DNA of 64,000 nucleotides from Escherichia coli (GTDB lineage: Bacteria > Pseudomonadota > Gammaproteobacteria > Enterobacterales > Enterobacteriaceae). Location: assembly GCF_030384885.1 (NCBI RefSeq), contig NZ_CP128613.1; one strand, written 5' to 3'. The position numbers are program-made. Positions 46,301 to 49,300 of this stretch are shown piece after piece; position 1 is the stretch's first letter, and every line of letters starts with the position of its first letter.

Positions 46301-49300
46301 GCCTGTCAGCGCCAGCGAGGATCTCGGCGCAGGTACGCATGTTGAGGTGATTGCGATAGAAGGGATAACGCTGATTATCCGTGCGGTCATCGCCTGATGC
46401 GACGCTGGCGCGTCTTATCATGCCTACAAAATATGCCCGAATCGTAGGCCAGATAAGGCGCTTGCGCCGCATCCGGCATATAGCCGAGTAGAGGCAAAAT
46501 TACTCTTCCCGGCCTTTACCCATACTTTTTTGGTCTTCATCCGGATAATGTTTTTTTAGATATTCCAGGACGTTTTTATTGACCTTGTGTTGCGTATACA
46601 CCCACCCTTTCCAGTAATCAGGCTGGTCCAGGTAAACTTCTGGCGGAATGGTGAAATCAGAAAGCGTTAACCATTCGGCTAATAGATCGGGGTTTCGTTT
46701 CTGGATTAACTGCAACAGCATAATCAGTGACATAGCTGAGGCAGGAGCCGTACTATCGCCACTTAAATATTTCCACACTGTTGACCGGTTCGAACGAAAA
46801 AGGATCGGTAGCAATGCCCGGTCCAGATTCATTTCATTAAAAATCTTCTCAAATTCATTCATTTAAATTTTCCTGCCTGGCGTAAACCTCTTAAAAATTG
46901 AGATTTATCAAAGAAACGCATTTTAGCACACATCAGGAACTGCTTCACGTTTAGTCCAGAAACAGAATTTATTTCGCTTATCAAAACAAGTCTTTACTCT
47001 TTTTTACATTAAAAGAGCACGAAATGTTTTCCTTTTTAATTTATAAAAGAAACATTTTTTGTTTCTTATTTGTGGTGTTTACGCTTACACCAGACAAAAA
47101 TGTGCTTTACATCACACAAATGGCGGCGTAGATTTCGATTAAATTGCAACGTAGTTTATTTCTTAAAACAATATTATTTGTTTCTTATAGAAACATTAAT
47201 GCGACTTATTTTGAACAAGAGAAAATGAATGAAAACTGTAAACGTAGCTTTACTGGCACTCATAATTTCAGCAACATCCAGCCCTGTTGTTTTAGCTGGT
47301 GATACCATTGAAGCGGCGGCAACAGAGCTTTCAGCCATTAACTCTGGCATGTCGCAATCGGAGATTGAGCAGAAGATTACCCGCTTTTTAGAACGCACCG
47401 ACAACAGCCCCGCTGCATATACCTATTTGACTGAACATCACTACATCCCTTCTGAAACACCTGATACCACTCAGACTCCCCCTGTCCAGACAGATCCTGA
47501 CGCAGGACAAAAAACCGTTGCCGCTACAGGTGATGTACAGACAACCGCCCGTTATCAGAGCATGATCAACGCCCGACAGTCTGCGGTAACTGATGCCCAG
47601 CAAACGCAAATTACAGAGCAACAGGCGCAGATCGTAGCCACACAAAAAACGCTCGCCGCGACTGGAGATACGCAAAATACTGCGCATTATCAGGAGATGA
47701 TTAATGCCAGACTGGCGGCTCAAAATGAGGCTAATCAGCGCACTACCACGGAACAAGGGCAGAAAATGAATGCACTGACAACCGATGTGGCAGCACAACA
47801 GCAAAAAGAAAGGGCTCAATACGATAAACAAATGCAAAGTCTGGCGCAGAAGTCTGTCCAGGCACATGAGCAAATTGAAAGTCTGAGACAAGATTCCGCA
47901 CAAACGCAGCAACAGTTAACCAACACCCAAAAACGGGTCGCAGATAACAGCCAACAAATTAACACGCTCAATAACCATTTCGATTCTCTGAAAAACGAAG
48001 TTGAGGACAATCGTAAAGAAGCCAATGCGGGAACTGCATCTGCCATCGCTATCGCTTCACAACCACAGGTGAAAACCGGTGACTTTATGATGGTGTCTGC
48101 AGGAGCGGGAACGTTCAACGGTGAATCTGCGGTGTCTGTCGGAACATCATTTAATGCTGGAATTCATACAGTAATTAAAGCGGGAGTCTCTGCGGATACA
48201 CAATCTGATTTCGGCGCGGGTGTCGGCGTGGGGTATTCGTTCTAATTTTAATAGCAATTTCTTATTCGCAATTTTCCGTACATTATTTAAGGTTAACAAT
48301 GATGAATAGCTCCATTAAATCGTTTTCCCTGCTGGCGGTTATATTACTGGCTGGCTGTAGTTCACCCACTTCCCGCATCGCAGATTGCCAAGCGCAGGGA
48401 GTCAGTCATGACACCTGTTATCTCGCAGAACAACAGCGTCAGGCGGCTATTTTAAGTGCATCAGAAGCACAGGCATTTAAAAATGCAGAAGCCGCACAAC
48501 ATGCCCAGGCCGCTAAAAAATCTATTTATAAAGGATTTGGCGTCACCTTCAGAATGAGCAGTAAGAACTTTGCTTATCTCAATGATTCATTATGTGCCAT
48601 AGATGAAGATAATGCCGATGCCACGGTTTATCAGTCGGGTCTGTATAACGTCATTGTTTATCATCACACAGGAAAAGTAGCCTTAATGAAAGAAGGCCAG
48701 TTTGTGGGTTATTTAAAATGAAACTCACGCTTATACATATTATGATTATTGGCGCTTTTATCTTTGCATTCTTGCAAGTGGTATTATTAGCCTCCCTGGT
48801 TCACGCTGTGAATGTTAACAACGAAATCCAGGAAGGCTTATTTCAGTCGGGGCGCATTATGGTAGAAAGTTTGCAGCATATTCTGTCTGTGCAACCGGGG
48901 ATTAACGGGTAAGAGCACCGCTTCCATTTATAGAGCAATAGTCACCCGCGTAATTTTCTGGCACAGTTCAGGGAACTGAAATTTTGGCTAAGGAGTAGCC
49001 ATGCTTTTTCCCTGTCGAAAACCTGAAGTACGTCTGCTGAAAAATACCGCTGCGGGCGTCATTTTTTCGGTGAAGTCAGGTAAAGGATTTCTGCGTCAAT
49101 GTGTGATTTACGATCCGCACCCTTATGGGCTTATCCGTTCGCTCTGCTGGCAGGATGTCCCGTTAATACGTTTCTGGTCCGAGGCTGGCTGCCCCACCTG
49201 TGCGGAATTTGTCTACAGCGGTTTTGCGGATGATGAACAGGGAGCCGCCCGGTTTTTGTCTGCTCTCGAAAACTGGAATCGCCCGTGGTCTGGCATGACG

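What the first reader, a model, noticed from the sequence alone, without database searches (positions are those of the whole stretch)
46863..47228. AT-rich divergent control region with repeated AGAAACA/TGTTTCT palindromes
Seen in sequence: the 366-bp interval between the divergent 120-aa gene and the YadA-like gene is strongly AT-rich. It contains two inverted repeats built on the same half-site: AGAAACA-ttttt-TGTTTCT (47048-47066) and TGTTTCT-tat-AGAAACA (47179-47195). Additional AGAAAC(A/G) half-sites lie at about 46905 and 46958-46964. This looks like operator sites for a dimeric regulator, possibly the divergent 120-aa protein, and like an H-NS-silenced horizontally acquired promoter.
Basis: seen in the sequence. 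Interest (0 to 1): 0.5.

Follow-up and report, generated by a model that had tools for sequence, protein, structure and literature searches.

The report
Operator array controlling an E. coli adhesin
The AT-rich gap between a small unannotated gene and a YadA-type adhesin gene in E. coli O-island 29 holds two conserved promoters and a conserved, regularly spaced set of TTTCT-N3-AGAAAC sites, most likely bound by the small gene's own helix-turn-helix protein.

Summary
The 366-bp gap is 30% G+C against 53% for the window. It holds 5 of the window's 7 AGAAACA/TGTTTCT heptamers, and both palindromes sit at the stated coordinates.

Comparison with about 20 related loci refines it. The repeated unit is a 15-bp palindrome, (G/A)TTTCT-N3-AGAAAC, like the 47179-47195 site. 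The other "palindrome" (47048-66) is the junction of two neighbouring units 22 bp apart. Units sit at conserved positions around two conserved promoters. One overlaps the inferred start of the small gene's transcript. The others bracket the adhesin promoter.

The 120-aa protein is predicted with confidence to have an XRE-type helix-turn-helix fold. It pairs divergently with a YadA-anchor gene wherever its family was found with enough context, except one fragmentary contig. That fits an autoregulated, probably repressing, local regulator, but no binding was tested here.

H-NS silencing could not be tested. A perfect CpxR-type box also lies in the gap.

This is an ordinary kind of control region with a new, very small regulator family.

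The parts
46500..46862 (-). [not shown]
46920..46928 (-). Extended -10 element TGCTAAAAT of the inferred small-gene promoter. The inferred transcript start is near 46913.
   Evidence: The TGnTAnAAT pattern is conserved in nearly all orthologous gaps (alignment A2). 8 of 9 columns are invariant among Escherichia alleles. The start site is inferred, not mapped.
46903..46917 (.). Operator unit A, ATTTAT-CAA-AGAAAC. It overlaps the inferred small-gene transcript start.
   Evidence: 13.4 bits. It occupies the same position in the orthologs, -194 to -198 from the adhesin -35. It is invariant in Escherichia.
46949..46963 (.). Operator unit B, GTTTAG-TCC-AGAAAC, centred about 43 bp upstream of the inferred small-gene start.
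   Evidence: 12.2 bits. It is conserved in position at -148 to -152. The right half is invariant while the spacer varies.
46993..47007 (-). Perfect CpxR-type direct repeat, GTAAA-AAAGA-GTAAA.
   Evidence: It is the only match in the 64 kb, against 0.13 expected. Exact copies occur in 9 of 23 fetched loci. In the Escherichia loci, L009 and L023 they lie in the gap (L020's copy lies outside it), about 125-147 nt upstream of the small-gene ATG where positions were worked out. The consensus is quoted in PMC9603713. Binding was not tested.
47039..47053 (.). Operator unit C, ATTTAT-AAA-AGAAAC.
   Evidence: 13.4 bits. It lies at -60 from the adhesin -35, matching -59 to -61 in the orthologs. AGAAAC is 6/6 invariant while the spacer varies.
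47061..47075 (.). Operator unit D, GTTTCT-TAT-TTGTGG, with a decayed right half in this strain.
   Evidence: It is a full palindrome at -37 to -39 in L011, L014, L015, L008 and L010. It is the 6th-best scoring position in the gap and lies exactly 22 bp from C. Other Escherichia alleles read TTTCT-TAT-AGNCAG here.
47106..47134 (+). Adhesin promoter TTTACA-17-TAGATT. The inferred transcript start is near 47141.
   Evidence: Found by the consensus scan. Both hexamers are invariant in 12 Escherichia alleles. GCTTTAC...GTAnnTT is invariant across genera. The start site is not mapped.
47158..47172 (.). Operator unit F, ATTTCT-TAA-AACAAT, with a decayed right half here.
   Evidence: It is a full unit at +57 to +59 from the -35 in most orthologs and in E. 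coli allele 2018-05-2CC, which reads ATTCT-TAT-AGAAGC. It is the 5th-best position in the gap and lies exactly 22 bp from G.
47179..47195 (.). Operator unit G, TGTTTCT-TAT-AGAAACA. It is a perfect palindrome and the best site in the window. It lies about +39 to +55 in the inferred adhesin leader, ending 34 bp before the ATG.
   Evidence: 19 bits. It lies at +79 to +81 from the -35 in 7 lineages. The half-sites are conserved while the 3-bp spacer changes among TAT, ATA and ATT.
47229..48245 (+). [not shown]
   Evidence: YadA_anchor hit at 5e-11. Signal-peptide-like N-terminus. RefSeq names it a YadA family autotransporter adhesin. The primer arm gmrA_R maps to 47190-47228.
48299..48912 (+). Two small genes downstream of the adhesin, both conserved in orthologous cassettes. 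One encodes a 140-aa lipoprotein with the lipobox LLAGC. The other encodes a 64-aa membrane protein.
   Evidence: Translations. The same gene order appears in L005, L008, L010 and L012.

Best explanation
The gap is the shared control region of a small mobile adhesin cassette: regulator gene, divergent gap, then YadA-type adhesin, lipoprotein and small membrane protein.

- Unit A covers the inferred start of the regulator's own transcript. That start lies just downstream of a conserved extended -10. Binding there would give autorepression.
- Units C and D sit about 95 and 73 bp upstream of the adhesin start.
- Units (E), F and G sit at about +1, +24 and +46. Neighbours are 22 bp apart.
- Together these units bracket the conserved TTTACA-17-TAGATT adhesin promoter.
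- Cooperative binding of adjacent dimers, perhaps with looping between the upstream and downstream sets, would repress the adhesin operon.

In this E. coli strain only A, B, C and G are strong. D and F are decayed and E is lost.

What is shown: the sites, their conserved positions, the promoter hexamers, the predicted fold of the protein and the gene pairing.

What is inferred: who binds, the sign of regulation, the transcript starts, cooperativity and looping.
For: Motif:
- AGAAAC is the most frequent 6-mer over 8 lineages of orthologous gaps (35 copies, all 8 lineages).
- TTTC-N5-GAAA is the most widely shared dyad, in 7 of 8 lineages.
- The flank of 47 AGAAAC copies shows a TTTCT partner at -8 to -4.

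Position:
- Site centres relative to the adhesin -35 recur at about -60, -38, +36, +58 and +80. They also recur at about -197 and -151 next to the small gene. This holds in loci whose gap sequence is otherwise only about 60% alike.
- 22-bp spacing is seen in L011, L014, L012, L015 and L021.
- In E. coli the 5th and 6th best positions fall exactly 22 bp from G and from C.

Selection:
- In the variable half of the gap only 10% of hexamer windows are invariant among 12 Escherichia alleles.
- The AGAAAC halves of C and G are nonetheless 6/6 invariant.
- The 3-bp spacers change freely.

Cross-validation: a matrix trained without E. coli recovers A, B, C and G.

Protein:
- AlphaFold pLDDT is 88.
- Foldseek's top hit is the HigA2 HTH domain (probability 0.99, but E 0.33; no match reaches E <= 0.001).
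- Weak sequence echoes point the same way: MqsA E 0.08 and HigA2 E 0.25.

Coupling:
- Most homologues with enough flanking sequence sit divergently next to a gene with a recorded YadA_anchor hit. This includes three at 44-50% identity.
- In L006, L011 and L015 the divergent neighbour carries no recorded YadA_anchor hit.
- The gap is about 356-408 bp long in most of them, and the surrounding genes differ.
Against: - Sequence-level membership in any HTH family is below threshold. The fold call rests on a predicted model, and a first model built from a shallower alignment was poor (pLDDT 62).
- The half-site stays the same even where the protein has diverged to 44-50% identity. A conserved host factor would also explain that.
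- Transcript starts are inferred from hexamers only.
- Left halves of most units are weak, so monomer-like or asymmetric recognition is possible.
- The orthologous loci are related, so the counts are not independent events.
Confidence: 0.6

Rival explanations
1. [not shown]
Against: The motif travels with the small gene into different genomic neighbourhoods and genera. It is rare elsewhere in the 64 kb. I could not match it to any consensus I recalled (CRP, Cra, OmpR, RcsAB, EvgA, MetR), which is a lead rather than a test. The recognition-helix residues NRST..K(Y/W)L are conserved together with the half-site.
Confidence: 0.2
2. The region is simply an AT-rich, H-NS-silenced promoter of foreign DNA. 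The repeats are low-complexity by-products without a sequence-specific binder.
For: The gap is 30% G+C on an island absent from most E. coli. The adhesin transcript peaks at 37 C and falls at 30 C and at high osmolarity, as is often seen for H-NS targets (my own knowledge).
Against: The half-sites are invariant while their neighbours and spacers vary. Positions are conserved across genera. Shuffles and AT-rich control windows give 0-2 hits per 366-bp window (4 here), against four strong sites here. H-NS may well act in addition, but it does not explain the motif.
Confidence: 0.1
3. The inverted repeats flanking the adhesin promoter (47040-54 and 47179-93) are the ends of an invertible, phase-variable promoter segment.
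For: 15-nt arms, 87% complementary, lie 124 bp apart around the promoter (pair I7).
Against: A query carrying the inverted segment found no genome with that orientation among 1412 that carry the locus. No recombinase gene lies in the cassette. There are no GATC sites for Dam-dependent switching.
Confidence: 0.02
4. The 47179-95 palindrome acts as an RNA hairpin in the adhesin leader, giving translational or stability control.
For: It lies inside the inferred 5' leader and folds as a 7-bp stem in the minimum-energy structure.
Against: The leader folds no better than shuffles (z 0.16). The left arm is not conserved in orthologs, while the AGAAAC half is. The same motif occurs upstream of the promoter and on both strands. 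No Rfam family reaches its threshold.
Confidence: 0.03

Closest known systems
Lambdoid repressor-operator arrays (lambda cI/Cro at OR1-OR3 between the divergent PR and PRM promoters)
   Different: There is no phage context: no match in 50,697 phage records. The target is an adhesin operon. The protein has a different C-terminal half and no detectable sequence membership. Cooperativity and looping are not shown.
HigA2 / MqsA-type antitoxin HTH domains
   Same: These are the best structural and weak sequence matches to residues about 1-65. Like them, this protein would be a small autoregulator binding palindromes in its own promoter.
   Different: There is no toxin gene next to it. There is no zinc-binding or toxin-binding domain. 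The partner gene is an adhesin.
Aca2 (anti-CRISPR-associated repressor; the DUF1870 assignment is my own knowledge)
   Different: The full-length superposition is poor (rmsd 7-9 A). No DUF1870 Pfam hit was found. There is no anti-CRISPR gene.
Restriction-modification controller (C) proteins and their C-boxes
   Different: There are no R-M genes. The operators here extend over about 290 bp and bracket a second promoter.
Published 'GmrA' of O-island 29 (PMC5826968)
   Same: It is the same locus. The gap studied here is the upstream region of gmrA (z0639).

Membership tests
XRE / Cro-C1 (lambda-repressor-like) HTH DNA-binding domain | A helical bundle in which helices 2 and 3 form the helix-turn-helix, superposable on known members. 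| tested here: met
   [not shown]
XRE / Cro-C1 (lambda-repressor-like) HTH DNA-binding domain | A sequence match to a curated family model above its threshold (Pfam HTH_3, HTH_31, MqsA_antitoxin and similar). | tested here: not met
   The only hit is MqsA_antitoxin at E 0.082 and 13.5 bits, against a cut-off of 30. NCBIfam gives none. A profile search against PDB gives HigA2 at E 0.25.
XRE / Cro-C1 (lambda-repressor-like) HTH DNA-binding domain | Sequence-specific binding to a palindromic operator as a dimer. | not testable with these tools
   Candidate operators were found, but there is no binding assay.
Type II antitoxin (HigA2/MqsA) | An adjacent cognate toxin gene in one operon. | tested here: not met
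   In E. coli the neighbours are ybbJ with REP elements on one side and the YadA-type gene on the other. No toxin family appears next to it in most loci. One locus (L014) has an unrelated Xre/RES pair further downstream.
Aca2 / YdiL / DUF1870 | Full-length fold and a family-model match. | tested here: not met
   Only the HTH core superposes (rmsd 7-9 A over the full length). No DUF1870 hit at E<=1.
CpxR-regulated promoter | A GTAAA-N(4-8)-GTAAA direct repeat near the promoter. | tested here: met
   A perfect GTAAA-N5-GTAAA lies at 46993-47007 and is unique in the 64 kb. It is conserved in related loci. The consensus is as quoted in PMC9603713.
CpxR-regulated promoter | CpxR-P binding and Cpx-dependent expression. 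| not testable with these tools
   No data were found.
H-NS-silenced horizontally acquired promoter | AT-rich DNA on an accessory island. | tested here: met
   30% G+C against 53%. The island is present in 26% of complete E. coli genomes and absent from K-12.
H-NS-silenced horizontally acquired promoter | H-NS occupancy and derepression in an hns mutant. | not testable with these tools
   [not shown]
Invertible promoter switch (fimS-like) | Both orientations occur in populations, and a site-specific recombinase is encoded nearby. | tested here: not met
   0 of 1412 genomes carry the inverted orientation. There is no recombinase in the cassette.
YadA-family trimeric autotransporter (for the downstream gene, 'GmrA') | An N-terminal signal peptide, a coiled-coil stalk and a C-terminal YadA_anchor domain. 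| tested here: met
   YadA_anchor at 5.3e-11 over residues 279-338, covering the full profile. Coiled-coil-type hits cover residues about 100-270. The N-terminus MKTVNVALLALIISATSSPVVLA is hydrophobic.

The most novel reading that the evidence does not exclude
Probability: 0.3. Interest if true: 0.6.

Novelty: new member of a known kind. Interest (0 to 1): 0.45.

Why it matters
It gives a concrete, testable regulatory map for an adhesin cassette carried by about a quarter of complete E. coli genomes, including O157:H7, APEC and neonatal-meningitis strains. The map covers two promoters, six to seven operator positions and a candidate CpxR box. It assigns a probable function to an unannotated protein family that has no Pfam model.

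It also flags a likely misassignment in the literature. The protein published as the transcription factor GmrA has the architecture of a surface adhesin, while the neighbouring gene encodes the helix-turn-helix protein. That changes how the reported link between O-island 29 and flagellar expression should be read.

Tried and rejected
1. Invertible promoter switch: no inverted allele in 1412 genomes.
2. RNA hairpin or known RNA family: the leader fold gives z 0.16. There are no Rfam hits above threshold in the gap. The sub-threshold naRNA4 hits lie at 46355-46514, over REP-like sequence and mostly outside the gap.
3. Dam/GATC phase variation: there is no GATC in the gap.
4. Raw k-mer over-representation test: uninformative because of homopolymers.
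5. Known E. coli regulator consensus sequences recalled from memory (CRP, Cra, OmpR, RcsAB, EvgA, MetR, LexA): none fits the TTTCT-N3-AGAAA spacing and orientation. These are leads only.
6. Co-variation between recognition helix and half-site in the most distant locus (L023): inconclusive, because GTTTCT half-sites persist there.
7. First AlphaFold run with a shallow alignment was unusable (pLDDT 62). A deeper alignment fixed it.
8. The search for related loci with the diverse alignment failed. With the closer alignment it found only 4 of 100,044 species genomes.
9. The afdb50 fold library was unavailable.
10. Plasmid and phage searches for the protein: there are no true plasmid or phage copies. 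The two 'plasmid' hits are 4.9-Mb chromosomes.

Full report
WHERE THIS IS

The window is E. coli chromosome, 99.9% identical to strain 2013C-4282. The finding lies in a small island inserted between ybbJ (45939-46397) and cueR (50225-50632). The island holds, in order:
- a 120-aa gene on the minus strand (46500-46862);
- the 366-bp gap;
- a 338-aa YadA-anchor gene (47229-48245);
- a 140-aa lipoprotein gene;
- a 64-aa membrane-protein gene;
- in this strain, a 407-aa ORF.

This is O-island 29 of EHEC EDL933 (z0638-z0640), described in PMC5826968. The gap sequence occurs in 1413 of 5426 complete E. coli genomes, always on the chromosome and once per genome.

The gap is 29.8% G+C against 52.7% for the window. 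Five of the seven AGAAACA/TGTTTCT heptamers in 64 kb lie in it. Dinucleotide shuffles of the gap give 0.14 copies on average.

WHAT THE REPEATED UNIT REALLY IS

I collected orthologous and more distant cassettes from several sources:
- other Escherichia;
- Pseudocitrobacter;
- Symbiopectobacterium;
- unnamed enterobacterial metagenome contigs.

Over eight lineages, without any prior, AGAAAC is the most frequent hexamer in the gaps (35 copies, present in all eight). The most widely shared dyad is TTTC-N5-GAAA, in 7 of 8 lineages. The other arrangement, AAAC-N7-GTTT, is in only 4. The sequence upstream of 47 AGAAAC copies shows a TTTCT partner three bases away.

The unit is therefore a 15-bp palindrome, (G/A)TTTCT-N3-AGAAAC, with a dominant right half. 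C and D are neighbouring units whose centres are 22 bp apart.

POSITIONS ARE CONSERVED

A weight-matrix scan places unit centres at recurring distances from the first T of the adhesin -35 hexamer. The recurring positions are about -60, -38, +36, +58 and +80, plus about -197 and -151 next to the small gene. The loci compared have gap sequences only about 62% identical column by column. Runs of three sites at 22-bp steps occur in L011 (36/58/80) and L014 (35/57/79). Pairs occur in L012, L015 and L021.

In this E. coli strain four units are strong:

| Unit | Centre | Score (bits) |
|---|---|---|
| G | 47187 | 19.0 |
| C | 47046 | 13.4 |
| A | 46910 | 13.4 |
| B | 46956 | 12.2 |

The next two best positions in the whole gap are 47165 and 47068. 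These are exactly G minus 22 and C plus 22, so they are decayed units F and D.

A matrix trained only on non-E. coli loci recovers A, B, C and G. They make up 4 of the 15 sites of at least 10 bits in the 64 kb, whereas shuffled gaps average 0.27.

SELECTION WITHIN ESCHERICHIA

Twelve Escherichia alleles were compared (88-100% identical). In the variable half of the gap only 56% of columns and 10% of hexamer windows are invariant. Yet the AGAAAC halves of C and G are invariant at 6 of 6 columns each. The GTTTCT halves of D and G are invariant at 5 of 6. The 3-bp spacers change freely: the G spacer reads TAT, ATA or ATT. In some alleles D and F are better palindromes than here, for example ATTCT-TAT-AGAAGC at F in strain 2018-05-2CC.

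PROMOTERS

The consensus scan finds TTTACA-17-TAGATT at 47106-47134 on the adhesin strand. Both hexamers are invariant in Escherichia. The block GCTTTAC...GTAnnTT is invariant across genera.

On the other strand, TGCTAAAAT (46928-46920) is an extended -10. The TGnTAnAAT pattern is conserved in nearly every locus, including distant ones.

The starts inferred from these hexamers are about 47141 and about 46913. Neither is mapped. They place the units as follows:
- unit A lies across the small gene's start;
- B lies about 43 bp upstream of it;
- C and D lie about 95 and 73 bp upstream of the adhesin start;
- E, F and G lie at about +1, +24 and +46.

E is present in several orthologs and lost in E. 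coli.

THE 120-AA PROTEIN

It has no Pfam or NCBIfam family. The only hit is sub-threshold, MqsA_antitoxin at E 0.08. The family is very small:
- 21 clusters at 90% identity among 5.8 billion;
- 18 representatives among 1.84 billion;
- 4 of 100,044 species genomes;
- no phage copy and no true plasmid copy.

- Aca1 and Aca10;
- HigA2 and MqsA;
- C-proteins;
- lambda cI.

Foldseek's best match is the HigA2 HTH domain (probability 0.99, E 0.33, rmsd 2.4 A over 63 columns). A profile search of PDB sequences also gives HigA2, weakly (E 0.25).

The N-terminal 65 residues or so are thus a HigA2/MqsA-like HTH. The C-terminal half is specific to this family.

Most homologues with enough context lie divergently next to a gene with a recorded YadA_anchor hit, across a gap of about 356-408 bp. 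These include three at 44-50% identity. The surrounding genes differ between loci. In L006, L011 and L015 the divergent neighbour has no recorded YadA_anchor hit. One fragmentary contig (L022) has only a possible remnant.

MECHANISM PROPOSED

RIVALS

- A host factor could bind instead (0.2). The half-site does not change as the protein diverges, and nothing links protein to site directly.
- H-NS silencing alone (0.1) does not explain the invariant half-sites at fixed positions, though it may act as well. The published temperature and osmolarity profile of the transcript is compatible with it.
- An invertible switch is rejected, since 0 of 1412 genomes carry the inverted form.
- An RNA hairpin is unlikely (z 0.16). 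No Rfam family matches. There are no GATC sites.

OTHER ELEMENTS IN THE GAP

A perfect CpxR-type repeat, GTAAA-AAAGA-GTAAA, lies at 46993-47007 on the small gene's strand. It is the only one in the 64 kb, against 0.13 expected. It recurs with 0-1 mismatch at the same place in related loci, including the distant L023. The consensus is quoted in PMC9603713.

A CRP-like TGTGC-N6-TCACA overlaps the adhesin -35 (47101-47116), but only its right half is conserved.

LITERATURE CHECK

Its deletion-primer arms map as follows:
- gmrA_R maps to 47190-47228, directly upstream of the YadA-anchor ORF;
- z0640_F maps to 46863-46900, directly upstream of the 120-aa ORF.

GmrA is therefore the 338-aa protein with a signal-peptide-like N-terminus, a coiled coil and a full YadA membrane anchor. 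RefSeq calls it a YadA family autotransporter adhesin.

VERDICT

The feature is real and conserved. It is an ordinary kind of control region, with divergent promoters and palindromic operators for a small HTH autoregulator. Its regulator family is new and very narrow, and its operator layout is tidy and 22-bp phased. Binding, the sign of regulation, and the CpxR and H-NS inputs remain to be tested.

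Noticed in passing
[not shown]
   Followed up: yes
window 46993-47007 (minus strand): A perfect CpxR-type box GTAAA-N5-GTAAA lies here. It is the only one in the 64 kb and is conserved in position and orientation in related loci. It overlaps a 7-bp inverted repeat, CTCTTTT-N7-AAAAGAG (46997-47017).
   Followed up: partly
window 47101-47116: A CRP-like sequence TGTGC-N6-TCACA overlaps the -35 hexamer of the adhesin promoter. Only the TCACA half is conserved in orthologs, and other E. coli alleles read TGCGC.
   Followed up: partly
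window 46898-46911: The dyad TTGA-N6-TCAA in the inferred leader of the small gene overlaps the left half of unit A. It is shared by 5 of 8 lineages. Its meaning is unknown.
   Followed up: no
window 48299-48912: A 140-aa lipoprotein (lipobox LLAGC) and a 64-aa membrane protein follow the adhesin gene here, and similar small genes follow it in several orthologous cassettes. They may be accessory factors for adhesin export or display.
   Followed up: partly
window 49001-50224: This 407-aa ORF has no family hit. It is present here, frameshifted in APEC O2-211, and absent from other alleles, including EC444 and strain 135. It is a variable part of the island.
   Followed up: no
L002 5812-7245 and L003 (E. 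coli EC444 and strain 135): A divergent allele of the adhesin is 477 aa long in EC444. Its ORF starts by the same control region, but RefSeq annotates a start about 380 bp downstream in EC444, probably too late.
   Followed up: partly
window 46355-46514: Sequence I read as REP-type repeats lies between ybbJ and the small gene, running into the gene's 3' end. It gives sub-threshold matches to Rfam naRNA4. The first ~80 bases of the 1001-bp query (from 46400) match hundreds of other E. coli loci.
   Followed up: no
window 50629-63926: Beyond cueR lie a type I secretion system (HlyD-type adaptor and ABC permease/ATPase) and a 3319-aa ORF. In the matching genome this ORF is part of a frameshifted SiiEA/BapA-like giant adhesin gene, so a second adhesin system sits next to this cassette.
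   Followed up: no
L008-L012 (Pseudocitrobacter and related contigs): The same cassette is inserted at a different point of the same neighbourhood. It lies between qmcA/ybbJ and fetA or cnoX, rather than between ybbJ and cueR. This suggests repeated insertion into the region.
   Followed up: no
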